Numbered from the stretch's first letter, positions 4,720 through 35,555 are shown. The stretch is DNA of 38,485 nt from an uncultured Enterobacterales bacterium (GCA_964559635.1 CAZLIR010000001.1:1-38485), one strand, 5' to 3'. Translations and numbers: made by a program. The notes: generated from the sequence alone by a model not told the origin.

Positions 4720-4730
4720 TCTGGTCACAT

Positions 4731-4755
4731 GAGTGCCTGCCTTGTGCAGGCGCTC
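4731..4755 (+). terminator. Stem-loop between the opsin gene and crtE (possible partial terminator or attenuator)
   Basis: GAGTGCCTGC-cttgt-GCAGGCGCTC forms a 10-bp stem (one G-U pair) with a 5-nt loop, starting 12 nt after the opsin TAA. The downstream T-tract is weak and displaced (atcagCTTTT). Confidence 0.4.
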
Positions 4756-4763
4756 ATCAGCTT

Positions 4764-7327: not shown

Positions 7328-7328
7328 T

Positions 7329-8270: not shown

Positions 8271-8276
8271 TGCACC

Positions 8277-20850: not shown

Positions 20851-23097
20851 ATGGCACAAGCAAATCATAAATCAACAAACCTATTTCAAAGAACACAACT
20901 AGCAATGGCTCTTGCTGCAGCCATTAGCACCATCTCATTACCACTCATAGCTGAAGAGGCCGAGGAAGAGGAGGCCACTAAAGCAAATGATTCGTCAGTG
21001 ATAACGGTCACAGCAACCAAGCGTGAACAGGCAATCTATGAGGTGCCAATTGCGATCAGTGCCTTTTCTGGTGACGAAATTGATGAGCAAGGAATAGTGA
21101 GCATAACCGATGTTGGCAAATTTGTACCAAATCTGAATATCACCGGATTTTCTGCCGGACATACATCATCGGCCAACCCCTTTATTCGTGGTATTGGATT
21201 ACAAGACCATCTGATCACTACGGATCCAGGCGTGAGTGTATACGTCGATGGTGTCTATCTGGGGCGACAGGTTGGACAGAACTGGAACTTGCAAAATATT
21301 GACCGAATCGAGGTACTCAGAGGACCACAGGGCACACTCTATGGTCGTAACTCCATTGGTGGTGCGATTAACATTATCACCAAGCAGCCTGATCAGGATG
21401 CCGTAACTAAGGTGACCGCTGAAGTGGGAACACGTGGACGTTTGAGAACCAATGTCTTTACTAATCAAGGTATTAGCGATAATTTGGCATTTAACTTCAG
21501 TATTGGTTTTGATCGCAGAGATGGCCTTGGTGAATTCTATAATTTGCCACTCGCAGAGTATGATGTCGGTGAAACGCAGGAATTTAATGGTCGTGTGTCA
21601 TTAAAATATGACAACGGTGACGATTTTAGATTGGTGTTCACTGCTGATGCCAATGACGGCCGTGGTGGTTTGCGCCCCTATACCACCTTGATTGATGAGA
21701 TTCCTAACGGACGTCTATATGCTGCTCGAGGTTTGCGTAACAGCGATGTTGCTGCTGACAGGTTCGATAACGCGACTGGTACGATTGAGTCAGCAGGAGT
21801 CTGGAATAAAGCCCGTGGCATTTCAATAACTGCAGATTATGATATCAGCGATACCTATGGTCTGAAATTCATCGCCAGCAATCGCTCGTCGAAATATAAG
21901 GCAGGTTTGGATGATGATGGTACCGTGGTCAGACTTGATCACTATCCAGAGCGAGGCTCAGCTGATCAAACCTCAATCGAGTTACAACTGACAGCTCAGT
22001 ACGATCAGGTCGATTTTGTTTCCGGTATTTACTGGTTTAATGAGGAAGGTAAAAATCGTCAGGATCCATCAGAAGCTAGTTTCGATGGTGGTCCAACACG
22101 ACTGGATTTGGATCAGGAAACCACCAGCTTTGCGATGTACATCAACGTCGGATATGACGTGTCTGAGGACCTCCGTATAACCGGTGGCTTACGCTATACC
22201 GAAGATGAGAAAGATGCCTCAACTAACGTGTTTGATCCAATCGGTACCATTTACGACAGTCGAGATTGGGACGAGTTATCCTGGGAAGTGGCCAGTAACT
22301 ACACTTTTGAGAGTGGGCTAAACTGGTATGCAACCATTCAGACCGGTTATCAGTCTGGGCAGTACCCGGCCAGACCTTACTTTTTGATCGGTCAGTTCTT
22401 TGGTGAGGGTGGCTTTGGCAACCCTGATGCTGCTGCGGCTGTACGAGCCAATAATGGTTTCAAGGCAGGTGACAACATTGGCGCGATTAACTATGAGACA
22501 GGTTTCAAAGGACGATTGTCGGATGAGTTAGTCATGAGCGTGGCATTGTTTAATACTATGTATGATGACTTGCCATATCAGGTCAGTGTCGTGACCGATT
22601 CAGGATTTGATACTAACAACCTCATCGTTGAGCAGACATCCCGTGGTGTTGAACTGGAAAGCACCTATTCACCAACAGAAAGCTTCCGCTTGCATGCTAG
22701 TGTTGGTCTGATAGATGTTGATGTTGATGAGCAAAATGGTGTCAAACCGGTCGCGCCTTTAACACCAGAAGTGACCGCAGCCATTAGTCCATCTTACACG
22801 GCAGAGCTAGATGGTGGGGCATTACTGACCACACGGGTTGATCTATCATATCGCGATGGTATGTATGGTGAACCTAGCTCAGATCCACTGCGGCTGACAC
22901 AGATTAGTGACAGAACTACAGTGAACTTTAATATGACTTATGAGCCACCGAATGCCGACTGGAGCGTGTCATTTTATGGTCGTAATATCACTGACGAGCG
23001 TTATGAGGATGCGCGTTTGAATACTGGTGATTACATTCTGGTCATACTTAACAACGATGCCAGTGAATTTGGCTTCCGTTACAACGCAACCTTCTGA
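20851..23097 (+). CDS. TonB-dependent outer-membrane receptor
   Basis: 748 aa with RBS GAGGAG and a signal peptide. An acidic linker is followed by the TonB-box region SVITVTATKRE. Plug motifs are RIEVLRGPQGTLYGRNSIGGAINIITK. The barrel ends in a terminal aromatic residue (RYNATF). Confidence 0.9.
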   Translation: MAQANHKSTNLFQRTQLAMALAAAISTISLPLIAEEAEEEEATKANDSSVITVTATKREQAIYEVPIAISAFSGDEIDEQGIVSITDVGKFVPNLNITGFSAGHTSSANPFIRGIGLQDHLITTDPGVSVYVDGVYLGRQVGQNWNLQNIDRIEVLRGPQGTLYGRNSIGGAINIITKQPDQDAVTKVTAEVGTRGRLRTNVFTNQGISDNLAFNFSIGFDRRDGLGEFYNLPLAEYDVGETQEFNGRVSLKYDNGDDFRLVFTADANDGRGGLRPYTTLIDEIPNGRLYAARGLRNSDVAADRFDNATGTIESAGVWNKARGISITADYDISDTYGLKFIASNRSSKYKAGLDDDGTVVRLDHYPERGSADQTSIELQLTAQYDQVDFVSGIYWFNEEGKNRQDPSEASFDGGPTRLDLDQETTSFAMYINVGYDVSEDLRITGGLRYTEDEKDASTNVFDPIGTIYDSRDWDELSWEVASNYTFESGLNWYATIQTGYQSGQYPARPYFLIGQFFGEGGFGNPDAAAAVRANNGFKAGDNIGAINYETGFKGRLSDELVMSVALFNTMYDDLPYQVSVVTDSGFDTNNLIVEQTSRGVELESTYSPTESFRLHASVGLIDVDVDEQNGVKPVAPLTPEVTAAISPSYTAELDGGALLTTRVDLSYRDGMYGEPSSDPLRLTQISDRTTVNFNMTYEPPNADWSVSFYGRNITDERYEDARLNTGDYILVILNNDASEFGFRYNATF

Positions 23098-23276: not shown

Positions 23277-24500
23277 ATGGATAGGCGCACAGCACTAAAA
23301 ATCATGGCCGCGTTGTCAGCGACAGCCCTCTCTCCGATGAGATTCGCAAGGAATCAACCAAAGGTGACGGTCATTGGTGCGGGAATTATTGGTGCTGCTT
23401 GTGCTTATTATCTCAGTCGTGCAGGAGCAAAAGTCACGATCCTTGATCAATCGGGTCCTGCGACACATGCAAGTCGGGGCACTTTTGCCTGGTTGAATGC
23501 CACTTGGGCCAAGCAACCGCAAAGCTATCATTATTTAAATCAAGTAGGGCTTCAGGTATGGAAAGAAGTTCAGAATGAGTTAGCCATACCTATTACATGG
23601 CAGGGCTCGCTGGAGTGGTTTGGTAATCAAGCGCGTAATACAAAGTTGATTGATCAAATTAAAGAGCAGCAATTATGGGGTGAACCCGCCAGAATGATAA
23701 CGTCTGATGAGGTTAAGCAATTAGAGCCGCATCTTGTCGTAAATAATCCGACACTCACCGCTTACTCACCCAATGATGGTGCACTGGACCCGGTCCAAGC
23801 TACACATACGATGCTGCAATATGCTCAAGCGCGTGGTGCTAAAGTCATCTCGCCCTGTAAAGCATTGCAGCCAGTATTTAAAAAACAACAACTAGTCGCT
23901 GTAGAGACTAGTATGGGTCGAATTGCCTCAGATAAGATTGTGCTTGCGACTGGGGCTGCACCAGATGCCAGTAAAATATTTAGCGATGTTTTCATTCCCC
24001 AGAGAAGCACACCGGGCATCATAGTCATAACTAAACCACTTATTAAACCCATTGTTAACAGAATTATTGCCGCGCCGGGAGTGCATTTACATCAGCGCAG
24101 TGACGGCAGAGTGGTGTTAGGTGAGCAGGATGGACCTCCTGAGGGTGAAGCACATGAAACGCGACTACAAGCTCGACCGAATGACTTCCCAACCAAGGCT
24201 CTGGCAACTGCGCATGGCAATCGTATTCTACAGACTGCGACAGAGTACTATCCGGCCTTGGCTCAAGCTGAAGTAGAAGATGTATACATCGGCTGGCGTC
24301 CATTGCCACTGGATGGTCACCCGGTGTTGGGAGTCAACCCTGAGCGACCAGATATTTACATAGCAATCATGCACAGCGGAGTAAGTTTGGCGGCACTCGT
24401 GGGTAAATCTGTCACCAAGGAGTTGTTGATGAGCGAGGCGTTAGATGAGTTAGCTGCCTATAGACCTGTACGCGAGTTTAGCCGCGTTAAACGTTACTGA
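23277..24500 (+). CDS. FAD-dependent oxidoreductase (DAO / D-amino-acid-dehydrogenase-like family) with a Tat signal
   Basis: 407 aa with an N-terminal MDRRTALKIMAALSATAL twin-arginine leader. The dinucleotide fold is VTVIGAGIIGAACAYYLSRAGAKVTILDQ. Confidence 0.8.
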   Translation: MDRRTALKIMAALSATALSPMRFARNQPKVTVIGAGIIGAACAYYLSRAGAKVTILDQSGPATHASRGTFAWLNATWAKQPQSYHYLNQVGLQVWKEVQNELAIPITWQGSLEWFGNQARNTKLIDQIKEQQLWGEPARMITSDEVKQLEPHLVVNNPTLTAYSPNDGALDPVQATHTMLQYAQARGAKVISPCKALQPVFKKQQLVAVETSMGRIASDKIVLATGAAPDASKIFSDVFIPQRSTPGIIVITKPLIKPIVNRIIAAPGVHLHQRSDGRVVLGEQDGPPEGEAHETRLQARPNDFPTKALATAHGNRILQTATEYYPALAQAEVEDVYIGWRPLPLDGHPVLGVNPERPDIYIAIMHSGVSLAALVGKSVTKELLMSEALDELAAYRPVREFSRVKRY

Positions 24501-25700: not shown

Positions 25701-26141
25701 ATGAGGGATCAGATGAGCATGTTTTCAACTAATAAATATAAATTCCTAGTTTATGTCAGCCGAAAAAGTGATGGGTTAAACTCTGACATGATTGCAGATA
25801 TCATATCTAAAGCTGTCATCAATAATGCTATGAATGACATCACTGGGATACTTCTGATTAAAAGGAACTATTTCTATCAGTTTATCGAGGGGACAGAAGA
25901 GGCCGTCGATGCCCTGTATGCAAAATTACAATGTGATAAGCGCCATGATGATTTGCACATACTCATGACTGGTTATGAGAACAAGCGAGTTTTTCCTATC
26001 TGGGATATGCATCCAATCTATTCAGACACGCCTGACCAACAATTCTACGATTTCGTCAAACAATGTCAGATACCGGAAGTTAAAGATAGTCTTCAGCAAT
26101 TTTGTATTAATGATAAGCCGCTGGTCGAAGCGTATCATTAG
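25701..26141 (+). CDS. Short stand-alone BLUF-domain blue-light photoreceptor
   Basis: 146 aa with the BLUF pattern FLVYVS...NNAMNDITGILL...YFYQFIEGTEEAVDALYAKLQCDKRHDD...RVFPIWDMH. Tyr18, Gln60, Trp101 and Met103 have exactly the spacing of AppA Y21/Q63/W104/M106. The start could instead be ATG 25713 or 25719 (GAGGGA at 25703-25708). Confidence 0.85.
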   Translation: MRDQMSMFSTNKYKFLVYVSRKSDGLNSDMIADIISKAVINNAMNDITGILLIKRNYFYQFIEGTEEAVDALYAKLQCDKRHDDLHILMTGYENKRVFPIWDMHPIYSDTPDQQFYDFVKQCQIPEVKDSLQQFCINDKPLVEAYH

Positions 26142-26186: not shown

Positions 26187-26762
26187 CTACTCTCCAGGAA
26201 CTACCCAATCCAGAATTAAATGCACAGCATCTTGATCACCATCATTTCTGATCCTGTGTGACAGTTGATTATTGATTTCAACTATCTCGCCTTCCAGCAG
26301 GTTAAGAGTCATCTCGCCAATATCAAAAAACACATCATCATTCGTGCGCAAAGGAATATAAATTCGATGTGCGTGTTGCATAGAGAATTCATCATCCCTA
26401 TGAGATGGAATAGTCACTTGTGAGCAAACTTTTTCAATGCTGGCTCTAATAAAGTAGCCGCGCTGTTTATCTTTAAAATACTCAGACCACTTGGGTGAGG
26501 TCTCATAGTAGTCTGCGATTTTAACGAGTGCAGGCCTAATTGATTCAGCAAATTGTTGCAATGCTGCAAGCTTAGTTGGCATATTGTGACGGAGTTGCTC
26601 ATCCCAGACGAGCGGTATGCAATGAATTCCTGCCATAGATGCGTCATGCAATGTATGTGAGAATTGCGTTTGCCACATATGGTTCTCAAGACTTTCCACC
26701 TGTGCTGATAGTTGAGATACTTCCATATCTCCAATGTGTAGGTATTCACCTGCAAAATTCAT
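26187..26762 (-). CDS. Aspartyl/asparaginyl beta-hydroxylase-family (cupin, Fe/2-oxoglutarate) oxygenase
   Basis: 191 aa. The C-terminal half matches the family pattern: PSHRDDEF..HAHRIYIPLRTNDDVFF...LLEGEIVEINNQLSHRIRNDG...VHLILDW. There is no signal peptide. Confidence 0.7.
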   Translation of the reverse strand: MNFAGEYLHIGDMEVSQLSAQVESLENHMWQTQFSHTLHDASMAGIHCIPLVWDEQLRHNMPTKLAALQQFAESIRPALVKIADYYETSPKWSEYFKDKQRGYFIRASIEKVCSQVTIPSHRDDEFSMQHAHRIYIPLRTNDDVFFDIGEMTLNLLEGEIVEINNQLSHRIRNDGDQDAVHLILDWVVPGE

Positions 26763-26779
26763 CTATATCACTCACTGTT

Positions 26780-28378
26780 TTAGTTATAGTGCTGCATATT
26801 TAGTATTTGTTTTAACCACACATCATGCGGTGGTAACTTTGATGGCGCAGCTTGCAATCGACGCGCGACATTAGGATGCACCTGTGTGTGATGACGAGAG
26901 TTCCCATGGCGTTGCGCCATCTCATCACCCATGAAATCCATACCGAACATAATCGCCTCATAACTGGTAGCGGGGAATATATTTCCGGTATCGACTGGTT
27001 GCCGAATATCACTGAAGCCTTCCGGTCTCTGTGCACCTGAATTCGGTGTCGTAGGAAAGTGTTGATCTTCAAAGTCAGTATCAGTGGGTGCTTTGTGCTG
27101 CCAGAATTCCAGTTTCGCCTTCAACCGCTCAGTGATGCGTTCTGATTTTTGTACCTCTCGCCAGAATTCGCTGTCTTGTCGCTTGGTGAGGCAATAATGT
27201 AAATTGATAAAATCAAGAATCTCATGGAAGCGGTTATAGATGATGCGATTGTAGCGATATGCCAGCTGCTCCATGTCATCGCTCATGGGGAAATATTCTC
27301 TGAGCATAACCGCGGCCAGATCGCTCAGATACAGTCCGGTCGATTCTAGTGGCTCAATAAATCCTGCCGATAATCCAATCGCGACACAATTCCCGACCCA
27401 CGCTCGTTCTCGATACCCTACCTTGAATTTTACCAGGCGTGTATCAAGGTCATGGCTATGGTCACCCTCGTAGGTGCGTAATTCTGCTTCAGCCTCATCA
27501 CGAGAAATAAAGTCACTGGCGTGAACATAACCCACGGCGCGTCTATTTTGTAATCCGATATCCCATATCCAACCACTCGATAGGGCGGTTGCAGTTGTGT
27601 ATGGCTTCACTGTACCGGGGTAGTAATGCTCATAAGGAATTTTCATCGTTAATGCCTGATCACAGAGTAGCCACTGTGATACATCAACGAATTTAACGCC
27701 CATAGCTTTTTCAATCAAAAGAGCTGCAAAGCCAGTACAATCAATAAATAAATCCGCCTCCAGAACCTGTCCTGATTGACACTTAACCGCTTGAATATTG
27801 CCGTTGTCTTTCACCAATACTTCATCGACGTGATCGAGGTAGTGCGATACACCCCTAGCGGTACTATGCTGCTGTAGGAAATGCGCAAACTTTGTCGCAT
27901 CCATATGAAATGCGTACTTCAGTGGCGCGCCAAAATCCCAGGGCCCCATCATCATCGGAGACAAATTCATTTCGCATATTTTGGGCTGTATCGATACCGT
28001 TTCCATAAACGGAATGCTGCGATCGCTGTTAAACCAATCTGCTCCGGTATGATCAATCGGTGCCTCTCTGAAGCGCTGAAATGAATGGTGGTATGACTCG
28101 CCCTGATTATGCAACCAGTTACTAAATTTAATTGACTGCTTGAAGGTAGCATCTGTGGCTTTCATGAATTCAATCAGGTCAACACCAATAACACTAAGTA
28201 TGTGATTGATACTTGGGATGGTTGCTTCACCCACGCCGATGATCGGCACGTCGGGTGATTCAACCAGAGAGATCTCAGCAACCTGTCTGCCGGGGCGATT
28301 CAAGGCGGCATTCAGGTAGGCGGCGGTCATCCAGCCAGACGACCCTCCACCAACAATTAATACTTTTCTCGGCTTCAT
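26780..28378 (-). CDS. Flavin-dependent halogenase family protein (tryptophan-halogenase-like)
   Basis: N-terminal KVLIVGGGSSGWMTAAYL is followed by GVGEATIPS, then the Lys-containing ATFKQSIKFSNW. Other blocks are CTGFAALL, GWIWDIGL (a variant of WxWxIP) and GFIEPLESTGL. I prefer ATG 28378 (GGGGA 8 nt upstream) over the track TTG at 28393. Confidence 0.85.
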   Translation of the reverse strand: MKPRKVLIVGGGSSGWMTAAYLNAALNRPGRQVAEISLVESPDVPIIGVGEATIPSINHILSVIGVDLIEFMKATDATFKQSIKFSNWLHNQGESYHHSFQRFREAPIDHTGADWFNSDRSIPFMETVSIQPKICEMNLSPMMMGPWDFGAPLKYAFHMDATKFAHFLQQHSTARGVSHYLDHVDEVLVKDNGNIQAVKCQSGQVLEADLFIDCTGFAALLIEKAMGVKFVDVSQWLLCDQALTMKIPYEHYYPGTVKPYTTATALSSGWIWDIGLQNRRAVGYVHASDFISRDEAEAELRTYEGDHSHDLDTRLVKFKVGYRERAWVGNCVAIGLSAGFIEPLESTGLYLSDLAAVMLREYFPMSDDMEQLAYRYNRIIYNRFHEILDFINLHYCLTKRQDSEFWREVQKSERITERLKAKLEFWQHKAPTDTDFEDQHFPTTPNSGAQRPEGFSDIRQPVDTGNIFPATSYEAIMFGMDFMGDEMAQRHGNSRHHTQVHPNVARRLQAAPSKLPPHDVWLKQILNMQHYN

Positions 28379-28399
28379 TGATGAGATCCCCAATCGCTA

Positions 28400-29188
28400 T
28401 TACTCATAGCCTAATAACTTACGCAGTCCCGGGGCGGCATAGTCGACCATTTGTTTGTTAATTTCGGGCAGTTCATTGGGAACTTCTAACCGAAGATCTG
28501 CCAGATTCTCTCGTGCTGTGCCACTCTGTTTACGATCAGAGCCAATGATGACGCGTTCTTTCCAGTCTGAAGGCAATTCATCAAAACCGCAGTCACTCAA
28601 CAGGTCAGCAAAATAGGTTTCCGCTTCAGGAGTATCAATATTTTTAACGTGTTTAACCAGGTCCTCAAAGTGAACCAGTTTAATACCTGTGCCTAACCAG
28701 GCTATTGCATTATTTGTATAAAATTCTTCCATAGTAGGAGCAACCTGATAGATACCAAAGATCATCAAACTGAGCACCTGCTCAATGGTGATTTTCCCTG
28801 ACCGGAGTTTTTCCATAGAACCATCGAAGTTTTTAGATAACATAAATCGCGCACGGGCAAGAACCCAGCTGTAAGGATCTCGTACGATCAAAACTTGATT
28901 AACCCCATGGGTTGCCATGGCGGAATCATCGGAAAATAACAGGTGTCCCCAACTCAGTTTAGGAGTTTTGGTATCAAAAGCAGCCAGATGATCCTGCAGC
29001 ATGGGAAGTTGGATAAACATATCATGGTATTGCTGTTCTACCGGAACAAACATCCGAAAAATGTTACGAATAAGATGGGTACCGCATTTCGGCACAGAAT
29101 TTAAAAATAGCGGGCTTGAAAGAGGGACCTGTTCAAACTCTAGATTCCGATCATTTAAATTATCTCTGTTAACTACAATTCTTGGCAT
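28400..29188 (-). CDS. Sulfotransferase-family protein (PAPS-dependent type)
   Basis: 262 aa with a 5'-PSB-like loop LNSVPKCGTHLIRN and a 3'-PB-like block VLIVRDPYSWVLARARF. There is no signal peptide. Its stop lies 21 nt before the halogenase start. Confidence 0.65.
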   Translation of the reverse strand: MPRIVVNRDNLNDRNLEFEQVPLSSPLFLNSVPKCGTHLIRNIFRMFVPVEQQYHDMFIQLPMLQDHLAAFDTKTPKLSWGHLLFSDDSAMATHGVNQVLIVRDPYSWVLARARFMLSKNFDGSMEKLRSGKITIEQVLSLMIFGIYQVAPTMEEFYTNNAIAWLGTGIKLVHFEDLVKHVKNIDTPEAETYFADLLSDCGFDELPSDWKERVIIGSDRKQSGTARENLADLRLEVPNELPEINKQMVDYAAPGLRKLLGYE

Positions 29189-29260
29189 GGAATACTCGAC
29201 GCTGTATTTTTAAAGGTGGCTATTATAGACCAACCAGAATCAGATACATATCTCACATCG

Positions 29261-29280
29261 ATTGTTAATGGCTTAACAAT
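29261..29280. promoter_or_regulatory. 8-4-8 perfect inverted repeat, candidate operator upstream of the sulfotransferase-halogenase-hydroxylase genes
   Basis: ATTGTTAA-tggc-TTAACAAT lies 73 nt upstream (minus-strand sense) of the sulfotransferase ATG. It is downstream of the TBDR terminator. Confidence 0.3.
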
Positions 29281-29346
29281 GTTACGAAATTTTTTTTCAT
29301 GAATGTCTAAAGGGGCAGCGTAAGAGGTGAGAAAATACCTTGGCAA

Positions 29347-29376
29347 TAAAAAAGGCCGAACTAGTCGGCCTTTTTA
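29347..29376 (-). terminator. Rho-independent (bidirectional-type) terminator after the 995-aa TBDR gene
   Basis: AAAAAAGGCCGA-actag-TCGGCCTTTTT. On the minus strand the GC stem is followed by U6. It starts 21 nt after the TBDR stop codon. Confidence 0.7.
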
Positions 29377-29396
29377 TGTCATCTGCTAATACTGTA

Positions 29397-32384
29397 TTAG
29401 AAGTTGTAAACAATGTTAGCAAATACTCTACGACCAATGAAATCATACTGGCTGTAGAAGGCAGCGTTACCGCCACCGTGTGCACCGGCACTTTGAGTTA
29501 ACCAGTTAGGCTGGTAACTTAAGCTTGGAGGTGCTGTGTCGAGCACGTTAGCAACACCAGCTGACCACATGATACTGTCGTCATACTGCTGTGTTACAGA
29601 GAGGGTATGATAGAACTGCTCACCAGCATAGTTGATAACATCATATTCAGTACCACGATATACGATAGTAGAACCACCGTCTTCACGTACGTTAGATGCG
29701 CTACCAATGTAGTTGACGTTCCAGTTGTATACCCACTCATCAACTGACAGTTGTGCACTGAACGTAGCGGTTAACTTAGGATCACCCAGATTACCGTTAC
29801 GGTCTTCGATCGTACCCTCAAATAAACCCACTTCATCCTTAACCTGATAAGTGTGACGTGATTCCAGACGTAAGGTACCAAAATCAAGTTCCATATCGTA
29901 GTTAATCGCTAAGTCGTAACCCGCATTTTCCTGAGTGTTAATGTTCAGGAAGCTGGCTGAGACAGTCTCAATGCGTTGGTCAATTGCGTTACGATCAAAC
30001 TGGTTACAAAGTGGTTCATTCGGGAAGAAGTCCGAATTATAGCAACCATAAACGATACTTCCTGCTGATAAAGTAGAAACCTCGTCGTTGATAACGAAAT
30101 CGAAGTAGTCTAGCGACATAGATAGACGGTCATTACCAAAATCAGGCGTCCATACGATACCAGCTGTTTTTGCAACAGAAGTCTCTGGTCTTAGAACACC
30201 CAGGCCACCACCGGTTACAACTGTAGCATCGATAGAACCACCAATGTAATCACCAGCAATGCCATCTGCAGCACAGTTGTCTGCGATTTTCTGGCTCGTT
30301 CTACCAGCAGCTAGTTCTTCTGCCCAGTTTACACATGGGTCAAGATTTCTCTGTCCAGTGAAACTTGTTTGGTCAGCAAGATACAACTCGAACAATGCCG
30401 GAGTACGGAATGAAGTACCACGTGATGCACGGAATTTCAGATCATCAGCTATATTCCAGGTCAAACCTACTTTATAGGTCGTGTCATCGCCGATATCTTT
30501 AACATCGGTATAACGCGCAGATACTTTTAATTCAACATCTTCGATAACTGGGACGATTGCTTCAAAGAACCCTGCATAGGTAGTACTCTTACCTGCAGTG
30601 ATGCCAGCCGAAGTTGAACCCCAAGAGTTACCATTACGTGTATGGAAACCCGGTGTGTCATTGATTTCGTCAGTACGGTAATGGAAACCAACAGCCATAT
30701 CAACTACACCAGCAGGTAATTCAAACGCTTCACCAGCGAAGACACCTTCGATGCCATTTTGTTTGTAGACTGTGTTACCCAAATCCGTTCCGAATAGGTA
30801 GTCACGGACTTCCTGACTCACATTGCCACGCATCATTTCCTCGTCAAACCAGTTGATATCCATACAAGGTTGGTTTGAATATTGATGCGTAATACCTACA
30901 CATGAATCAGTCAGGAACTCCTGATCATAGATTACATCTGCGTAGATGATTTTAGTCAGGTAGTCACCGTCAGAGCGTGAAGATTGCATGTGAATATCGT
31001 AGTACCAACTGGTGTCACCGATATCACCTGTAACACCTGCAACTGCACGAGTGTAGTCTACAGTGATAGTGCCACCAGCATGATCAGTAATTGGTGTCGG
31101 ACTGAAGAAAACATCACCACCCCAACCATAATCTAAGGCATTACCACCTGCTGAGCCATCCCAGAAGTCCCAAGAATTACCAAAGGTACCGAATGTGTAG
31201 TATTGACGGTAACCATTAACAATAGTTTCGCGGCGGTTCATTAATAATTCACCGTAGGCTTTAGTTTGGCTGTCCAGGTCGTAATCACCGGAAACAAATA
31301 CAGTTGTTTTTGTTACTTCAGGACGTAATGTTTGTAAGTCCTGGAAAGGGTGATCCTGGTTAGTTACTGCATCTGACGCACGGTCATAAGCAACTTCGTA
31401 CCAACCTGGAGGTGCGACTAGGTTTCCTGGCTGGCCTGATGGGTTAGCTGGAATGTAGTTACCCAGGTCGCCATCGTAGTCGTATTGGAACAGGATAGTA
31501 CCTGTACTAAATATATTGGTCGTCGCAGGATCCTGGTAATCATAAACCCAGTTGTGTCCCCAGGTCACATCACCACAGGCAAATTTGCCAGTACGTGGGT
31601 CAATATTATCCGCTCGTTCACCAGTGTCTTTATCAAAGATCATATCTTCACTACAGTCGAAGAAATCACGGTCACCACGAGCCAATTCACTGTCTTTAGA
31701 GTAGTCAGCTGTAACTAATAAACTACCGTTTTCAAAGGTCTTACCCCATGTAGCACTAATTCGGGCCTGTTCACCACCGCTTTCAAACGGCGCAGACATG
31801 AAGGCTTCGATAGTAGCAATATCAGTTGATTTAGTGATCAGGTTCACAACACCAGCAACTGCATCAGAACCGTATAAAGACGAAGCACCGTCTTTTAAGA
31901 TTTCAACACGTTCAATGGCTGAGAGTGGAATGACGTTTAAGTCGAAAGATGAAACCTCACCTCGAGTACCAGCAGCACCGGCACGACGACCGTTGACAAG
32001 AACCAGAGTTCTAGCAGCACCCAGACCACGCAGCGAGATGGTATTTGCACCAACACCACCAGCAGTTACATCTTCAGATGAGATAGCAGAAGTCACCTGA
32101 GGTGAACCGGAGGCGATAGTAGCCGCACGTAATAATTCACCTACTGATTCCATGCCCTGAAAGCGAGCATCATCAGCTGAAATGATTTCAATTGGTTCAT
32201 CATTATCAAAACCATCTCGTCTAATTCTTGAGCCGGTGATGATGATTGTACTCTCTTCATCGGCCTCTTCACCTTCTTGTGCTTCAGCAGCATTAAGGTT
32301 TAACGCTAGTAAACCTGTGGTTGTTAGTAATAATCCTCTCATTGCTGATGCAAGAGGATTCAACCTTTGTTGTTTTTCAATCAT
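29397..32384 (-). CDS. TonB-dependent outer-membrane receptor (large, 995 aa)
   Basis: Signal peptide, then an acidic linker (AEAQEGEEADEES) and the TonB-box region TIIITGSRIRR. Plug motifs are IERVEILKDGASSLYGSDAVAGVVNLITK. A long beta-barrel ends in the aromatic NIVYNF. RBS GGGGA. Confidence 0.9.
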   Translation of the reverse strand: MIEKQQRLNPLASAMRGLLLTTTGLLALNLNAAEAQEGEEADEESTIIITGSRIRRDGFDNDEPIEIISADDARFQGMESVGELLRAATIASGSPQVTSAISSEDVTAGGVGANTISLRGLGAARTLVLVNGRRAGAAGTRGEVSSFDLNVIPLSAIERVEILKDGASSLYGSDAVAGVVNLITKSTDIATIEAFMSAPFESGGEQARISATWGKTFENGSLLVTADYSKDSELARGDRDFFDCSEDMIFDKDTGERADNIDPRTGKFACGDVTWGHNWVYDYQDPATTNIFSTGTILFQYDYDGDLGNYIPANPSGQPGNLVAPPGWYEVAYDRASDAVTNQDHPFQDLQTLRPEVTKTTVFVSGDYDLDSQTKAYGELLMNRRETIVNGYRQYYTFGTFGNSWDFWDGSAGGNALDYGWGGDVFFSPTPITDHAGGTITVDYTRAVAGVTGDIGDTSWYYDIHMQSSRSDGDYLTKIIYADVIYDQEFLTDSCVGITHQYSNQPCMDINWFDEEMMRGNVSQEVRDYLFGTDLGNTVYKQNGIEGVFAGEAFELPAGVVDMAVGFHYRTDEINDTPGFHTRNGNSWGSTSAGITAGKSTTYAGFFEAIVPVIEDVELKVSARYTDVKDIGDDTTYKVGLTWNIADDLKFRASRGTSFRTPALFELYLADQTSFTGQRNLDPCVNWAEELAAGRTSQKIADNCAADGIAGDYIGGSIDATVVTGGGLGVLRPETSVAKTAGIVWTPDFGNDRLSMSLDYFDFVINDEVSTLSAGSIVYGCYNSDFFPNEPLCNQFDRNAIDQRIETVSASFLNINTQENAGYDLAINYDMELDFGTLRLESRHTYQVKDEVGLFEGTIEDRNGNLGDPKLTATFSAQLSVDEWVYNWNVNYIGSASNVREDGGSTIVYRGTEYDVINYAGEQFYHTLSVTQQYDDSIMWSAGVANVLDTAPPSLSYQPNWLTQSAGAHGGGNAAFYSQYDFIGRRVFANIVYNF

Positions 32385-32781
32385 TTATTTCCCCATTTTC
32401 CTTTTAGGTTCATATTTTTCTATTTCCCGTGCTGAGCAAGTAAATACTCAGTCAGCAATCGGAAAGCGGGAAGGTATCACAAAGCAATCACTAATCGAGG
32501 GAATGGAATGAAATGTTACATTTAGAAAGATGGCGTCATAAAACTGTGCTGAAGTGTGTCTGTAACCAACCAAAATGTAATCTAATCTGTTTGTAAGTGA
32601 GACGACTTATGTGGCAGTTGATACCCAAAGAATCTCTAATTGTATAAATAACGTACAGTGACAGGATTGCCGCTTTGAAGGTGTGTTAAATTATTGCTAA
32701 TTCAGTTTGTTATTTGACTGCCTCAGTCAAGTTGTGAAAGTATCCCACCCTGAAATTAATGACAGACATACAGACAAGACT

Positions 32782-33507
32782 ATGGAATTTTTAGAGACCT
32801 TACATTCGCGAAGAAGTATTCGGGCATTTACTGACCGCGAGGTTGATCAGGAGACGCTCAATGCTATTTTATCTGATGCCATCGAATCGCCATCAAGTTC
32901 AAATACTCAGCCGTTCAAGTTGGCGGTAGCGACAGGGGATACATGCCGGCAGATTGGCGAGGATTTATTAAGTAACTACAAGGTGATCAATAAATTTCAA
33001 CGTCAGCCTACACTCTTAAAGTTGTTTAACTTCCTCACCAGTAAAGCCAGACCAGACGGCGACTATGTGCCAATACTTGGCAAGTATCCGGGTATTTTTC
33101 AGGAACGACGCATACACACCGGCCGAGGACTTTATGAAATTTGGGGTATCAAACGCGGTGATCGCAAAGCCAGGGATGCCTCACTAGCTAGAAACTTCAC
33201 CTTCTTTAACGCGCCAGTGGCGATATTCGTATTTCTGCACACCGGTATGAAGCATACCGCATTCATTGACACAGGAATCATGATGCAATCGCTCATGTTA
33301 TCAGCAACCGCACGTGGACTGGGTACCTGCGCACAGGGTAGTCTGGGTATGTGGCGCTCGCCATTGGAAAATCACTTTAATATTCCGCAAGGTTATAAAT
33401 TAGTGTGTGGAATTTCCCTCGGTTATCCAGATGACTCCGATCCAGCCAATGGCTATCGCCCCAAGAAAATCTCACTGGATGAACTGCTCATCGAGAGTAA
33501 ATCATAA
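32782..33507 (+). CDS. Nitroreductase-family FMN oxidoreductase
   Basis: The N-terminal MEFLETLHSRRSIRAFTDREV is the classic nitroreductase start. SSSNTQPFK and a C-terminal GISLGYPD are present. I start at ATG 32782; the track TTG at 32707 adds 25 unlikely residues. Confidence 0.8.
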   Translation: MEFLETLHSRRSIRAFTDREVDQETLNAILSDAIESPSSSNTQPFKLAVATGDTCRQIGEDLLSNYKVINKFQRQPTLLKLFNFLTSKARPDGDYVPILGKYPGIFQERRIHTGRGLYEIWGIKRGDRKARDASLARNFTFFNAPVAIFVFLHTGMKHTAFIDTGIMMQSLMLSATARGLGTCAQGSLGMWRSPLENHFNIPQGYKLVCGISLGYPDDSDPANGYRPKKISLDELLIESKS

Positions 33508-33628
33508 CAATCATTAGCTGCTATAACGGTTGATATGCTACCTGATTAATATTAGCCAATACATCAATAGATTATTAACAAACAACATATTAGTATCTAG
33601 CTACATTCATTTAATAGAGGTGTGCCGA

Positions 33629-34279
33629 TTGAACGGTCCGGATCCAAATGACAAAGAGCCAATCAGAGGCGTTCCTCAGGTTGGTTTCTTAAAAAACTAC
33701 ATAAATAATGACAACATCAATGTTGGTGATTACACCTATTATGATGATCCTGATGGTCCGGAGAGATTTGAGCAGAATGTGCTCTATCACTTTCCATTTA
33801 TCGGCGATAAACTCGTTATAGGTAAATTTTGCGCCATTGCCAAAGATGTAAAATTCATCATGAATGGTGCAAATCACAAGACTTCAGGATTTTCTACATA
33901 CCCATTTTATATCTTTGCCAATGGTTGGGAGAGTGTGACCCCTCAACCTGGGGAGTTGCCTTACAAAGGAGATACAGAGATAGGTCATGACGTTTGGATT
34001 GGTTATGATACAACTATCATGCCTGGTGTGAGTATTGGTAGTGGTGCTATCGTAGCCAGTAAGTCGGTCGTAACAACAGATGTCCCTGCCTATAGCATCG
34101 TTGGTGGTAATCCAGCTAAAGTCATTAAGTATCGCTTTGATGAGTCGACTATTGATTCCCTTCTTGCAGTTTCATGGTGGGACTGGGATATACAGGTCAT
34201 AACAGACAATTTAGAAGCAATCACTAACTGCGATTTAGAGCACTTAAAAACAGCTTATCAAGCGCATTCAAAGTCATAA
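33629..34279 (+). CDS. Vat-like xenobiotic (streptogramin A type) O-acetyltransferase, hexapeptide-repeat family
   Basis: Collinear by eye with Vat(D)/XAT proteins: GPDPN...VGDYTYYDD...[47 protein letters not shown]...GWE...[73 protein letters not shown]. The likely start is TTG 33629 (GAGG 8 nt upstream) or GTG 33620. The track start at 33530 is too long. Confidence 0.85.
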
Positions 34280-34463
34280 TCACCTGATTAGTGCGTACTT
34301 ATCCTGAGTTTCTATGTTCCAAATTTGATGGGTCATATGCGAACGAGTGGCACGTGCATGTCGCATAAATATAACTTTAATGTTGGACATTTCAGTATCT
34401 AAAATATAGGTTGTCTATATCTATTACGAAAATCAGAAGCTATTCTGATAAGGATACAAAACC

Positions 34464-35555
34464 ATGACAATCCTCCGTAGTACTCAAACATGCACCTCGC
34501 GTTTGCTTCTATTATGCCTCTCCCTACTCTTATTACCGGCCTGCTCTGATACTGAAGAAGAGGTTGCTGAGGTAAAGCCACGCATGGTTCAAACGCAAGT
34601 GATCAACTTACGTCAGACGGATAATTATCTCGAATTTCCCGGTCAAGTCAGTGCCTCACAAACCGCTCAATTGGGTTTCCGCATTGCCGGTAAATTATCA
34701 CAGATGAATGTCAGAGAGGGCGAGGAAGTTGCTAAAGATACACTTCTAGCCGCATTAGATGATACGGATTATGCCATTCAACTAGAAGCTCGACAGGCTG
34801 ATTACGACCGAGCGAATGCTGACTTCACCCGCGGCAAACAACTCATCGAGAAAAACCTGCTTGCCAGAGCCGATTTTGACAAGTTAACCGCTCAGCGAAC
34901 CTCTGCGCTCTCAAGCCTCAATGCTGCAAAACAGAACATGATTTATACCCAGCTCAAAGCGCCTTTTGATGGCATTATCGGCAAGCAGCATGTTGAGAAT
35001 TTCGAAGATGTTAATGTCATGCAATCGATATATACCATTCAGGATCTTTCCATTTTGAAGATTAAGGTCGCTTTACCTGAAACTGTCATGATTTCGGCAA
35101 GAGAGGGTAAAAATGCCAGAGTGCGAGCATTGTTTGATTCAATACCCGGCAGAGAATTTCCCCTTGTCGTTGATTCCGCATCAACGGAGGCTGATCCTGG
35201 TTCCAAAACATTTGAAGTAACGTTTACTATGCCAAGCGTTGAGGGTGTGAATATATTACCGGGTATGTCTGCAACCGTTCGAGCAACACCCTCTGTCGCG
35301 GAGGAGGAAACCAATATCATTGTACCTGCACATGCAGTCATTGCGGATACCTTCGGCAAGGCGGTGTTCGTTGTTGAAAATATTCAAGACAATCAAGGGA
35401 CAGTTGTCAGACGGTCGGTTGAAACCGGCTTATTAGGTGACTCAGGTATCGTTATTTTGTCAGGGCTCAACGAGGGTGATCATGTGATCACCGCAGGCAT
35501 GAGTCGAGTCAATGAGGGCCTCGTTGTTCGTTTGAGCAAGGAATGGACTAAATGA
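34464..35555 (+). CDS. RND efflux periplasmic adaptor (membrane fusion protein), lipoprotein
   Basis: 363 aa with a lipobox LLLPACS. Biotinyl-lipoyl-like GKLSQMNVREGEEVAKDTLLAALD and a coiled-coil region are present. YTQLKAPFDGIIG is the typical HlyD_D23 hairpin return. The stop overlaps the permease ATG (ATGA). Confidence 0.85.
   Translation: MTILRSTQTCTSRLLLLCLSLLLLPACSDTEEEVAEVKPRMVQTQVINLRQTDNYLEFPGQVSASQTAQLGFRIAGKLSQMNVREGEEVAKDTLLAALDDTDYAIQLEARQADYDRANADFTRGKQLIEKNLLARADFDKLTAQRTSALSSLNAAKQNMIYTQLKAPFDGIIGKQHVENFEDVNVMQSIYTIQDLSILKIKVALPETVMISAREGKNARVRALFDSIPGREFPLVVDSASTEADPGSKTFEVTFTMPSVEGVNILPGMSATVRATPSVAEEETNIIVPAHAVIADTFGKAVFVVENIQDNQGTVVRRSVETGLLGDSGIVILSGLNEGDHVITAGMSRVNEGLVVRLSKEWTK

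What the first reader, a model, noticed from the sequence alone, without database searches (positions are those of the whole stretch)
26187..32384. TonB-dependent receptor linked to three cytoplasmic tailoring enzymes (sulfotransferase, flavin halogenase, Asp/Asn beta-hydroxylase); substrate unknown
All four genes are on the minus strand: a 995-aa TBDR, then a sulfotransferase, a tryptophan-halogenase-family flavoenzyme and a cupin Asp/Asn beta-hydroxylase-family oxygenase. The enzyme genes are separated by gaps of only 17-21 nt.

To my knowledge, pairing of TBDRs with 'tryptophan halogenase' and cupin/hydroxylase genes recurs widely in Alteromonadales, Xanthomonadales and Caulobacterales. No imported substrate or enzymatic product has been established for it. 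Here the set additionally includes a PAPS-type sulfotransferase.

None of the three enzymes has a signal peptide. The logic looks like import of a compound through the outer membrane followed by hydroxylation, halogenation or sulfation in the cytoplasm, or alternatively production of a small modified metabolite. No NRPS, PKS or RiPP precursor gene is visible, and no inner-membrane transporter is encoded in the locus. I consider this the best candidate in the window for a genuinely uncharacterised system.
Basis: partly seen in the sequence, partly recalled or inferred. Interest (0 to 1): 0.7.

Follow-up and report, generated by a model that had tools for sequence, protein, structure and literature searches.

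The report
Receptor–sulfotransferase–halogenase cassette, function unknown
The four genes are real and belong to a widespread, uncharacterised cassette in which an outer-membrane TonB-dependent receptor gene is almost always followed by a terminator, a cytoplasmic sulfotransferase and usually a flavin halogenase; what these enzymes modify is still unknown.

Summary
A 995-aa TonB-dependent receptor (TBDR), a 262-aa sulfotransferase-fold protein (ST), a 532-aa flavin halogenase (HAL) and a 191-aa 2OG/Fe cupin lie on the minus strand. The gaps are 208, 21 and 17 nt, and none of the enzymes has a signal peptide.

- In 72 species-level loci, the TBDR sits directly upstream of ST on the same strand in 59 and within two genes in 11 more.
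- HAL is adjacent or nearby in 52 of 72 loci. The cupin is nearby in only 6 of 74.
- The window's cupin is a truncated, divergent copy that lacks its family's Cys-rich tail.
- A canonical hairpin terminator separates TBDR from ST in 38 of 51 loci, including this one.

ST has no Pfam hit. It does have a sulfotransferase fold and invariant PAPS-loop Lys, His and Arg-Asp-Pro residues. HAL keeps its catalytic Lys and Glu.

No Fur box, riboswitch, precursor peptide, NRPS, SapC or conserved transporter accompanies the cassette.

Related TBDR–HAL–SapC trios sit in sugar-utilisation loci with unrelated receptors, so the enzymes probably do not process the cargo.

The general theme was described by Iyer et al. 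2010. The ST-centred cassette is a new variant, and its function remains unknown.

The parts
29397..32384 (-). TonB-dependent outer-membrane receptor, 995 aa, with a signal peptide and a TonB-box-like IIITGSR
   Evidence: It has Pfam Plug (E 2.3e-18) and TonB_dep_Rec_b-barrel (E 1.2e-20) hits. The N-terminal hydrophobic segment is shown. Orthologues share a median 49% identity and sit next to ST in 70 of 72 loci.
29344..29372 (-). Intrinsic-terminator-like hairpin (AAGGCCGAC-TAGT-TCGGCCTT) plus TTTTATTG, about 25 nt after the TBDR stop
   Evidence: The sequence was read directly, and RNAfold gives -11.8 kcal/mol. A similar GC-rich hairpin plus T-run occupies the same position in 38 of 51 loci, mostly of the form GCCGRC-loop-GYCGGC + TTTTATTT. 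The consensus scan did not list it.
29222..29227 (-). Perfect TATAAT hexamer 33 nt upstream of the ST start; a possible weak internal promoter with no good -35
   Evidence: This comes from direct reading only. The promoter scan did not report it. The evidence is weak.
28400..29188 (-). 262-aa cytoplasmic PAPS-type sulfotransferase-fold protein (ST), the constant partner of the receptor
   Evidence: It has no Pfam, NCBIfam or PDB sequence hit. The AF2 model has mean pLDDT 79, and the top 49 Foldseek PDB hits are all sulfotransferases. K34/G36/T37, G81/H82, R103/D104/P105 and S222 are invariant down to 25% identity. Distant relatives hit PF00685. The family has 2985 clusters.
26780..28378 (-). 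532-aa flavin-dependent halogenase (Trp_halogenase family)
   Evidence: PF04820 hit at E 1.2e-130. The closest structure is 9lu2 (E 2.5e-99); RebH and PrnA score about 1e-83, and BrvH/Xcc4156 about 1e-67. GGGSSG, the FK lysine (100% conserved) and EPLES are present. WIWDIG replaces WxWxIP, the only such case among 64 cassette halogenases.
26187..26762 (-). 191-aa 2OG/Fe(II)-type cupin (PF05118 family), a truncated and divergent lineage-specific add-on
   Evidence: PF05118 hit at E 3.6e-9. The AF2 model has pLDDT 86.6 with a double-stranded beta-helix fold, and the best Foldseek match is L-proline cis-4-hydroxylase 4p7w (E 7.5e-9), ahead of AspH. H121/D123/H169 are retained. It lacks the family's roughly 35-aa Cys-rich tail and has Ala where 10 of 13 relatives have Arg. 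This family lies near ST in only 6 of 74 loci.

Best explanation
This is one copy of a self-contained, laterally mobile cassette. A receptor gene of about 1000 aa is followed by a strong hairpin terminator and then by genes for a cytoplasmic PAPS-dependent sulfotransferase and a flavin-dependent halogenase. In this species a truncated 2OG/Fe cupin has been appended.

I propose that transcription of the receptor leaks through the terminator. A weak internal promoter could do the same job. Either way, the enzymes would be made at a low level whenever the receptor is made.

I propose that the enzymes do not process the imported cargo. Instead they decorate an electron-rich acceptor that the cell makes itself. 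The simplest candidate is a tryptophan/indole- or tyrosine-type small molecule. The steps would be ring halogenation by HAL, hydroxylation where a cupin is present, and O-sulfation by ST. The product would be a small halogenated sulfate ester whose role is tied to the receptor, as a ligand, co-ligand or signal.

Shown: gene content, orthology and synteny, the terminator, intact catalytic residues, and the absence of signal peptides (hence a probable cytoplasmic location). Inferred: read-through coupling, the identity of the acceptor, and the role of the product.
For: Synteny: the TBDR is directly upstream of ST on the same strand in 59 of 72 species-level loci and within two genes in 11 more. 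HAL is directly downstream in 40 and nearby in 12 more. The flanks are otherwise housekeeping genes that differ between genera.

Orthology: all three proteins are orthologous across orders. Median identity is 49% for TBDR, 62% for ST and 58% for HAL.

Terminator: it is present after the TBDR in 38 of 51 loci. It is also present at four TBDR-HAL junctions of the SapC type.

ST: it has a sulfotransferase fold and invariant Lys, His and Arg-Asp-Pro residues. A distant relative sits beside an APS kinase.

HAL: the catalytic Lys and Glu are intact. Its nearest sequence relatives include the free-tryptophan halogenases RebH and PrnA.

Cupin: its nearest structures are free-amino-acid hydroxylases. 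In L088 a cupin is followed after 8 nt by a second sulfotransferase, which fits hydroxylation followed by sulfation.

Cargo argument: HAL neighbours unrelated TBDRs in loci for agar/galactan, alpha/beta-galactosides, sucrose/fructan and cellulose/xylan. This argues that the cargo is not the enzymes' substrate.

Precedent: Iyer et al. 2010 reached a similar biosynthetic reading.
Against: - No scaffold-forming enzyme, exporter, importer or regulator travels with the cassette.
- 20 of 72 loci have ST but no nearby HAL, so halogenation is dispensable.
- TBDR sequences do not differ between HAL+ and HAL- loci. That is odd if the receptor recognises the halogenated product.
- There is no rationale for why sugar-uptake receptors elsewhere would need such a metabolite.
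- The terminator could equally mean that the units are independent.
- No halogenated or sulfated metabolite is known from the carrier genera. This is to my knowledge, and the literature searches found none.
Confidence: 0.35

Rival explanations
1. Protein modification. ST, HAL and the cupin modify side chains of a ribosomally made protein in the cytoplasm before export. Candidate marks are Tyr or hydroxyl sulfation, Trp halogenation and Asp/Asn hydroxylation. The most economical substrate is the co-encoded receptor itself. This would parallel enzymes such as Aah, TibC and HMW1C, which modify the adjacent outer-membrane or secreted protein (that parallel is from my own knowledge).
For: - The receptor is the only constant partner, and the module needs nothing else.
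- HAL, SapC and cupin genes accompany unrelated TBDRs with different sugar cargoes. That points to the receptor, not the cargo, as the common factor.
- Distant ST relatives, and a ST-cupin fusion (c96, in loci L062 and L076), carry TPR protein-binding repeats.
- BrvH has an open, MibH-like active site and rejects free Trp.
- All three enzyme families have protein- or peptide-modifying members (Iyer 2010).
- Low-level read-through expression would suit a modifying enzyme.
Against: - There is no precedent for halogenated or sulfated bacterial outer-membrane proteins.
- No TBDR alignment column, Trp or otherwise, distinguishes HAL+ from HAL- loci.
- The nearest structural and sequence neighbours of all three enzymes are small-molecule enzymes.
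- More distant ST relatives lie in glycan-biosynthesis clusters.
Confidence: 0.25
2. Import then modify. The receptor imports an aromatic or peptidic compound, which is then hydroxylated, halogenated and sulfated in the cytoplasm.
For: The receptor and enzymes are adjacent. Carrier lineages such as Idiomarina, Kangiella and Woeseiaceae are, to my knowledge, proteolytic. Secreted S9 or S15 peptidases flank the cassette in about 10 of 80 loci.
Against: No inner-membrane importer or catabolic gene is conserved with the cassette. PAPS-dependent sulfation and halogenation are costly biosynthetic steps, not catabolic ones (inference). In related cassettes the cargo is sugar, which is not a halogenase substrate.
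Confidence: 0.12
3. Halogenated siderophore-like metallophore with its cognate receptor (the specific prediction of Iyer et al. 2010).
For: The architecture is that of a receptor next to cytoplasmic tailoring enzymes. Iyer et al. found the linked receptors closest to siderophore receptors.
Against: - No convincing Fur box lies upstream of the receptor; there are 4 weak matches in 50 loci.
- There is no NRPS or NIS synthetase, exporter, periplasmic binding protein or ABC importer.
- No enzyme that would make a chelating group is present.
- NCBIfam siderophore-receptor models match only far below their cut-offs.
Confidence: 0.08
4. ST acts on a glycan or envelope component, for example by sulfating LPS or a surface polysaccharide, and the receptor linkage is indirect.
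For: Relatives at 32-34% identity sit in glycan-biosynthesis clusters with glycosyltransferases, NDP-sugar enzymes and an APS kinase. The PF05118 family includes the lipid A hydroxylase LpxO (own knowledge).
Against: No glycosyltransferase or sugar-nucleotide gene accompanies the cassette in 80 loci. The strict TBDR adjacency and the halogenase partner are left unexplained.
Confidence: 0.1

Closest known systems
TonB receptor / tryptophan-halogenase / SapC / JOR-JmjC (or Syn9-gp52-like 2OGFeDO) neighbourhood of Iyer, Abhiman, de Souza & Aravind 2010 (PMC2938197)
   Same: An outer-membrane TonB-class receptor sits next to 1-3 flavin halogenases with an intact catalytic Lys, plus a double-stranded beta-helix oxygenase. 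The enzymes are cytoplasmic, there are no scaffold genes, distribution is sporadic and lateral, and the product is unknown. Iyer et al. mention sulfotransferases in some versions. Seven annotated examples were confirmed here.
   Different: There is no SapC and no JmjC-like cupin in the window or in any of the 85 ST loci. The constant partner is a 262-aa sulfotransferase-fold protein placed between receptor and halogenase. The cupin is of PF05118 type, rare, and truncated here. The receptor is unrelated beyond the plug domain to the sampled SapC-type receptors. The cassette stands alone rather than inside a sugar-utilisation locus.
Orphan proteobacterial flavin halogenases BrvH and Xcc4156
   Same: They belong to PF04820 with GxGxxG and the catalytic Lys and Glu. 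They come from marine or plant-associated Proteobacteria without natural-product clusters. BrvH is active in vitro on indole and prefers bromide. Their native substrate is unknown.
   Different: The window enzyme is closer to 9lu2 (E 2.5e-99) and to RebH/PrnA (about 1e-83) than to BrvH/Xcc4156 (about 1e-67). It carries WIWDIG instead of WxWxIP. It has not been assayed.
PAPS-dependent small-molecule and peptide sulfotransferases (cytosolic SULTs, plant SOTs, glycopeptide Teg12; RaxST from own knowledge)
   Same: They share the fold, with Foldseek probability about 1.0 for 49 top hits. They also share the 5'-PSB Lys-x-Gly-Thr loop, a candidate catalytic His and the 3'-PB Arg-Asp-Pro motif.
   Different: Sequence similarity is below detection for Pfam, NCBIfam and PDB. 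TM-scores are only 0.4-0.5. Ala sits where I place the 3'-phosphate Ser by spacing from SULT1E1 (Arg130/Ser138, recalled from memory and not aligned). The acceptor is unknown. The gene is strictly receptor-linked.
Siderophore biosynthesis loci with a cognate TonB-dependent receptor
   Same: A receptor gene lies adjacent to cytoplasmic enzymes that would make its ligand.
   Different: There is no Fur box, NRPS/NIS synthetase, exporter or ABC importer.
Proteobacterial carbohydrate-utilisation (CUT/PUL-like) TBDR loci
   Same: The receptor is large, about 1000 aa. Halogenase genes are common passengers in such loci.
   Different: No glycoside hydrolase, regulator or inner-membrane sugar transporter is conserved with this cassette.

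Membership tests
PAPS-dependent sulfotransferase superfamily (Sulfotransfer_1-like) | Match to the family profile at the curated threshold | tested here: not met
   The window protein has no Pfam or NCBIfam hit even at E<=10. Relatives at 25-33% identity do pass PF00685, and a few close homologues carry a precomputed PF00685 hit.
PAPS-dependent sulfotransferase superfamily (Sulfotransfer_1-like) | Sulfotransferase fold | tested here: met
   The AF2 model has pLDDT 79. The top 49 Foldseek PDB hits are all sulfotransferases, with E down to 5.6e-5 and TM 0.34-0.50.
PAPS-dependent sulfotransferase superfamily (Sulfotransfer_1-like) | 5'-phosphosulfate-binding loop (PKxGT) with the catalytic Lys | tested here: met
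   The loop reads NSVPKCGTH. K34, G36 and T37 are invariant in both close and distant alignments.
PAPS-dependent sulfotransferase superfamily (Sulfotransfer_1-like) | 3'-phosphate-binding motif (Arg ... Ser) and a catalytic His | tested here: inconclusive
   R103-D104-P105 and G81-H82 are invariant. The position eight residues after the Arg, where I recall SULT1E1 having Ser138 after Arg130, is an invariant Ala111 among close homologues. Residue equivalence was inferred from spacing against remembered SULT1E1 numbering, not from a structural superposition.
PAPS-dependent sulfotransferase superfamily (Sulfotransfer_1-like) | PAPS-dependent sulfotransfer activity | not testable with these tools
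   The only indirect support is a 34%-identical relative that sits next to an APS kinase.
Flavin-dependent (tryptophan-type) halogenase, PF04820 | Profile match, GxGxxG FAD motif, catalytic Lys (PrnA K79 equivalent) and Glu (E346 equivalent) | tested here: met
   PF04820 hit at E 1.2e-130. GGGSSG is present. The FK lysine is 100% conserved in 64 cassette halogenases, and EPLES is present in all 64.
Flavin-dependent (tryptophan-type) halogenase, PF04820 | WxWxIP motif | tested here: not met
   The window has WIWDIG. The other 63 cassette halogenases have Pro at this position.
Flavin-dependent (tryptophan-type) halogenase, PF04820 | Residues that hold free tryptophan (RebH Y454/Y455/E461/F465 loop) and halogenating activity | not tested
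   The C-terminal 100 residues align poorly to solved structures. No residue mapping was done.
Asp/Arg beta-hydroxylase-type 2OG/Fe(II) oxygenase, PF05118 | Profile match above the curated cut-off and a double-stranded beta-helix fold | tested here: met
   The score is 37.1 bits against 22.6, covering residues 90-187 only. The AF2 model has pLDDT 86.6. Foldseek finds 4p7w at E 7.5e-9, proline 3-hydroxylase, and AspH from rank 13.
Asp/Arg beta-hydroxylase-type 2OG/Fe(II) oxygenase, PF05118 | HxD...H iron triad | tested here: met
   H121, D123 and H169 are conserved in the family alignment.
Asp/Arg beta-hydroxylase-type 2OG/Fe(II) oxygenase, PF05118 | Conserved Arg before the last strand (R-[VI]-H-L, the presumed 2OG carboxylate binder), and full family length | tested here: not met
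   The window has Ala178 where 10 of 13 relatives have Arg. It also ends exactly before the family's 8-Cys tail. The copy may therefore be impaired.
Iyer-Aravind TBDR/halogenase/SapC/JmjC neighbourhood | TonB-class receptor adjacent to a halogenase with an intact Lys | tested here: met
Iyer-Aravind TBDR/halogenase/SapC/JmjC neighbourhood | SapC gene and JOR/JmjC-type cupin | tested here: not met
   A SapC HMM and a cupin-like query from L094 found nothing in the window or the 85 loci.
Siderophore locus | Iron (Fur) regulation, an NRPS/NIS synthetase and ABC import | tested here: not met
   Only 4 of 50 upstream regions have even a weak Fur-like match, with 6 mismatches. No such genes occur in the loci.
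RiPP cluster | Precursor-peptide gene conserved with the tailoring enzymes | tested here: not met
   No small ORF of 15-90 aa is conserved beyond a single genus.
Riboswitch-controlled TBDR (B12, TPP and similar) | Rfam riboswitch in the leader | tested here: not met
   The window has no Rfam hit at gathering thresholds.

The most novel reading that the evidence does not exclude
The sulfotransferase, halogenase and cupin, and by extension the SapC/JmjC partners of other TBDRs, would be a receptor-maturation system. They would post-translationally sulfate, halogenate or hydroxylate the co-encoded TonB-dependent receptor, or another exported protein, in the cytoplasm before Sec export. That would be a class of outer-membrane protein modification not known in bacteria. 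It would explain why halogenase genes shadow unrelated TBDRs whatever their cargo.
Probability: 0.22. Interest if true: 0.9.

Novelty: new variant of a known kind. Interest (0 to 1): 0.6.

Why it matters
'Tryptophan halogenase' genes next to TonB-dependent receptors are common in marine and plant-associated Proteobacteria. No function has been assigned to them since the pairing was noted in 2010.

This cassette is the most stripped-down form found here: receptor, terminator, sulfotransferase and an optional halogenase, with nothing else conserved. It is present in cultivable genera such as Kangiella, Pseudidiomarina, Idiomarina, Alteromonas, Marinicella and Kordiimonas. That makes the question directly testable with three knockouts and mass spectrometry.

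It also identifies a large protein family that current profile libraries miss. The family has about 3000 clusters at 90% identity, occurs in 316 GTDB species, and is about 62% identical across orders. It appears to be a receptor-linked sulfotransferase.

Either outcome would be new biology. One possibility is a new halogenated sulfate-ester metabolite tied to outer-membrane transport. The other is covalent modification of an outer-membrane receptor.

Tried and rejected
- Pfam and NCBIfam on ST at E<=10, and a PDB sequence search with a profile, gave nothing.
- The Rfam scan of the window gave nothing, so there is no riboswitch.
- The Fur-box scan and 8-mer enrichment on 50 receptor upstream regions showed no shared operator.
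- A search for conserved small ORFs (a RiPP precursor) around the cassette in 80 loci found only genus-level DNA conservation.
- The test for receptor alignment columns conserved in HAL+ but not HAL- loci found none. It therefore supports neither a halogen-specific binding site nor a halogenated Trp.
- SapC and JmjC searches in the loci found none.
- ST against the plasmid collection gave no match.
- Genes replacing HAL downstream of ST in HAL-less loci are heterogeneous, or are spurious ORFs in high-GC genomes, and gave no consistent alternative partner.
- The nitroreductase, hexapeptide acyltransferase and RND pump next to the receptor were considered as system parts (flavin reductase, exporter). 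I rejected them because they co-occur only in this species.
- Reverse sulfotransfer for sulfur scavenging was considered. I rejected it by inference, because seawater sulfate is abundant.
- My recollection that Blanvillain et al. 2007 discusses halogenase, SapC or Pass1 was wrong for the main text.
- No paper combines halogenase, TonB-dependent and sulfotransferase.
- No functional study of TBDR-linked halogenases was found in 10 literature searches.

Full report
**Observation**

- The 995-aa protein (29397-32384) has Plug and TonB-dependent beta-barrel domains and a signal-peptide-like N-terminus.
- The 537-codon ORF 26780-28393 is a Trp_halogenase-family protein (PF04820, E 1.2e-130). Its likely start is the ATG at 28378, giving 532 aa.
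- The 191-aa ORF (26187-26762) matches PF05118 Asp_Arg_Hydrox above the curated cut-off, over its C-terminal half only.
- The 262-aa ORF (28400-29188) has no Pfam or NCBIfam match, even at E<=10.

The inter-enzyme gaps are 21 and 17 nt, each with a short purine-rich stretch before the ATG. None of the three enzymes has a hydrophobic N-terminus or a TM-like segment.

The window matches a marine Alteromonadales MAG at 100% identity. Several metagenome contigs carry the same gene order.

**Is the 262-aa protein a sulfotransferase?**

Profile libraries and PDB sequence search are silent on it. Four other lines of evidence support the call.
- An AlphaFold2 model (mean pLDDT 79) finds only PAPS-dependent sulfotransferases among its top 49 Foldseek hits. 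These include SULT7A1, SULT1A1/1A3, plant SOTs and Teg12, with modest TM-scores of 0.34-0.50.
- The family alignment shows an invariant NSVPK-C-GTH loop, WGH, and VRDP.
- Relatives down to 25% identity were added, some of which do pass PF00685. The invariant residues that remained were K34/G36/T37, G81/H82, R103/D104/P105 and S222. These correspond to the 5'-phosphosulfate loop Lys, a candidate catalytic His and the 3'-phosphate Arg.
- A 34%-identical relative lies beside an APS kinase.

I accept it as a probably active PAPS-type sulfotransferase. One caveat is that Ala111 sits where I place the 3'-phosphate Ser by spacing from SULT1E1 numbering recalled from memory.

The family is large and strongly conserved. 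It has 2985 clusters at 90% identity and occurs in 316 GTDB species. Identity is about 62% across gammaproteobacterial orders and some Alphaproteobacteria.

**Synteny survey**

I fetched 80 species-level loci around ST homologues. I called ORFs, clustered them, and labelled TBDR, ST, HAL and cupin with HMMs.

| Relationship to ST | Loci |
|---|---|
| TBDR directly upstream, same strand | 59 of 72 |
| TBDR within two genes (additional) | 11 of 72 |
| TBDR a few genes away (the remaining two) | 2 of 72 |
| HAL directly downstream | 40 of 72 |
| HAL within four genes, sometimes 2-3 paralogues (additional) | 12 of 72 |
| HAL absent | 20 of 72 |
| Window-type cupin within five genes | 6 of 74 |

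The flanks are housekeeping genes that differ between genera, such as glnS, dnaK/dnaJ, sucBCD, recN and polB. The cassette is therefore self-contained and has been relocated repeatedly.

The receptor, ST and HAL are each orthologous across loci, with median identity to the window of 49%, 62% and 58%.

The core is therefore receptor plus ST, with HAL as a frequent third member.

**The cupin**

Its homologues are about 225 aa long and end in a conserved eight-Cys tail, CCCxxKxHPxxxCxPQACxETDxLxxPCxCF. The window copy stops exactly before that tail. It is at most 51% identical to any relative and has Ala where 10 of 13 relatives have Arg in R-V-H-L. It keeps H121/D123/H169.

The model is confident (pLDDT 86.6). 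It is closest to the free-amino-acid hydroxylases L-proline cis-4-hydroxylase and proline 3-hydroxylase, with AspH appearing from rank 13.

In the nearest relatives the cupin lies convergent to TBDR-ST-HAL. In Pleionea sediminis it is elsewhere in the genome. The tight 17-nt coupling seen here is lineage-specific, and this copy may be impaired.

In L088 a cupin is followed after 8 nt by a second sulfotransferase. In L062 and L076 a 656-692-aa protein fuses a sulfotransferase-like domain, this cupin type and TPR repeats. Both arrangements are independent evidence that hydroxylase and sulfotransferase work together.

**The halogenase**

It keeps GGGSSG, the catalytic lysine (the FK lysine, 100% conserved among 64 cassette halogenases) and the EPLES glutamate. 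It is the only one of the 64 with WIWDIG instead of WxWxIP.

Its closest solved relative is 9lu2, a putative Trp halogenase (E 2.5e-99). RebH and PrnA follow at about 1e-83, and the orphan indole brominases BrvH and Xcc4156 at about 1e-67.

**Transcription architecture**

About 25 nt after the receptor stop lies AAGGCCGAC-TAGT-TCGGCCTT followed by TTTTATTG (29344-29372; -11.8 kcal/mol). A similar GC-rich hairpin plus T-run sits in the same place in 38 of 51 loci, from Kangiella to Woeseiaceae, mostly of the form GCCGRC-loop-GYCGGC + TTTTATTT. Hairpins with T-runs also follow the receptor at four TBDR-HAL junctions of the SapC type.

The receptor is thus set apart from the enzyme genes. Conserved order across a terminator suggests attenuated read-through: high receptor expression and low enzyme expression. 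This is inference, and a weak internal promoter is also possible (a TATAAT at 29222-29227).

**What does not accompany the cassette**

- No Rfam element.
- No convincing Fur box or shared upstream motif.
- No small ORF conserved beyond one genus.
- No NRPS or PKS, no conserved transporter or regulator.
- No SapC or JmjC-type cupin.

The nitroreductase, acyltransferase and RND pump beside the receptor in the window are confined to this species.

**Wider context**

Iyer et al. 2010 described conserved neighbourhoods of a TonB-class receptor, 1-3 tryptophan halogenases, SapC and JmjC or classical 2OG dioxygenases, with sulfotransferases in some versions. They predicted a halogenated siderophore-like metabolite.

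I sampled seven annotated loci from plasmids and chromids of Catenovulum, Pseudoalteromonas, Hirschia, Sphingobium, Niveispirillum and Asticcacaulis. All seven pair a TBDR with a halogenase, five with SapC and one with a cupin. All lie in glycoside-hydrolase-rich loci of different specificity:
- agarase with beta-galactosidase;
- alpha/beta-galactosidase with an SLC5 transporter;
- GH68 with LacI and an MFS transporter;
- GH9, GH43 and GH3;
- GH2 and GH3.

Those receptors resemble the window receptor only in the plug domain. Halogenase genes therefore shadow unrelated receptors whose cargo is sugar, and sugar is not a flavin-halogenase substrate.

It also argues against 'import then modify the cargo' and against 'the enzymes synthesise the cargo'.

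BrvH is active on indole but not on tryptophan. Its native substrate is unknown, and its open active site resembles that of the peptide halogenase MibH. No experimental function for any such cassette was found in ten literature searches.

**Mechanism**

I commit, at about 0.35, to a receptor-coupled tailoring module. Cytoplasmic ST and HAL, plus a cupin where present, would be expressed at low level with the receptor. They would decorate an endogenous electron-rich acceptor, most simply a Trp/indole- or Tyr-type small molecule. The product would be a halogenated sulfate ester whose role is tied to the receptor.

Supporting points:
- The nearest neighbours of all three enzymes are small-molecule enzymes.
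- A cupin-then-sulfotransferase gene pair occurs in L088.

Points against:
- There are no scaffold or export genes.
- HAL is absent from 28% of loci.
- Receptors are indistinguishable between HAL+ and HAL- loci.
- Nothing explains why sugar receptors elsewhere would need such a product.

The main rival, at about 0.25, is that the enzymes modify a protein, most economically the adjacent receptor, before export. This rival best explains the receptor as the hub, the self-sufficiency of the module and the TPR fusions. It is unprecedented, however, and gained no support from the HAL+/HAL- comparison.

Import-then-modify (0.12), a siderophore-like metallophore (0.08) and glycan or envelope sulfation (0.10) are less likely.

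**Novelty and verdict**

The finding is real and non-random, and the system is uncharacterised. The general theme was already published in 2010. What is new here:
- the ST-centred cassette (receptor, terminator, ST, then HAL) as a distinct, SapC-free variant;
- the recognition of a large sulfotransferase family that profile libraries miss;
- the conserved terminator;
- the evidence that the cupin is peripheral and truncated in this window.

I rate it a new variant of a known kind, with interest 0.6.

Noticed in passing
window 4006-11219 (+): A proteorhodopsin gene (PF01036) is followed by polyprenyl synthase, phytoene desaturase, phytoene synthase, lycopene cyclase, beta-carotene 15,15'-dioxygenase (Blh) and an FMN-dependent dehydrogenase. 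This looks like a complete retinal/proteorhodopsin light-harvesting cluster.
   Followed up: partly
window 25701-26141 (+): A BLUF blue-light sensor protein lies convergent with the cupin, 45 nt from its stop. Together with the rhodopsin cluster, it marks this as a light-responsive marine heterotroph.
   Followed up: no
alignment A2; loci L086-L089: The PF05118-type cupin family carries a conserved C-terminal 8-Cys tail, CCCxxKxHPxxxCxPQACxETDxLxxPCxCF, of unknown role. It could be a metal site or a substrate-like tail. The window copy lacks it.
   Followed up: partly
L076 10893-12863 (+) and the equivalent gene directly downstream of ST in L062: A 656-692-aa fusion protein combines an N-terminal sulfotransferase-like domain (HKTGGQT, RNPWDW), a PF05118-like cupin (HTD...H...RIHLIIDW) and C-terminal TPR repeats. 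It sits directly downstream of ST.
   Followed up: partly
L097 2288-3797 (IMGVR_UViG_3300032282_001230); L098 5941-6768: On a phage contig with DNA polymerase A, a PD-(D/E)XK nuclease and an SNF2 helicase, a 36%-identical ST relative overlaps the start of a 2OG-FeII_Oxy_5 oxygenase gene. A second viral contig has an ST relative among structural-like genes. These are sulfotransferase-oxygenase pairs without any receptor.
   Followed up: partly
L090, L091, L093, L094 (TBDR-HAL junctions): Strong hairpins followed by T-runs lie immediately after the receptor stop in SapC-type cassettes from Catenovulum, Pseudoalteromonas and Sphingobium. This mirrors the terminator in the ST cassette.
   Followed up: partly
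L039 (NZ_JBGQOM010000007.1, labelled Flavobacterium sp. W21_SRS_FM6): This contig shares cassette flanks (clusters c87, c88, c52, c53, c54) with a Paraglaciecola MAG (L068). The Flavobacterium label is probably a contaminant contig or a mislabel.
   Followed up: no
L007, L009, L013, L039, L042, L046, L010, L051, L068, L027, L089: Secreted S9 prolyl-oligopeptidase or dipeptidyl-peptidase genes, and one S15 peptidase gene, flank the cassette in about 10 loci. This is a weak hint that the receptor's cargo could be peptidic.
   Followed up: partly
L008, L016, L038, L057; L088 1632-2564; L099 1440-2411: Additional sulfotransferases lie near the cassette in several loci. Some are TPR + Sulfotransfer_3 proteins of 460-600 aa, and others are stand-alone 310-323-aa proteins.
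   Followed up: no
window 32707-38485 (+): A nitroreductase-family flavoprotein, a hexapeptide-repeat acyltransferase and an RND efflux pair lie divergent from the receptor. They could supply reduced flavin or export, but they co-occur with the cassette only in this species.
   Followed up: partly
window 20851-23097 (+): A second, unrelated 748-aa TonB-dependent receptor is followed by a DAO-family FAD oxidoreductase (23277-24500).
   Followed up: no
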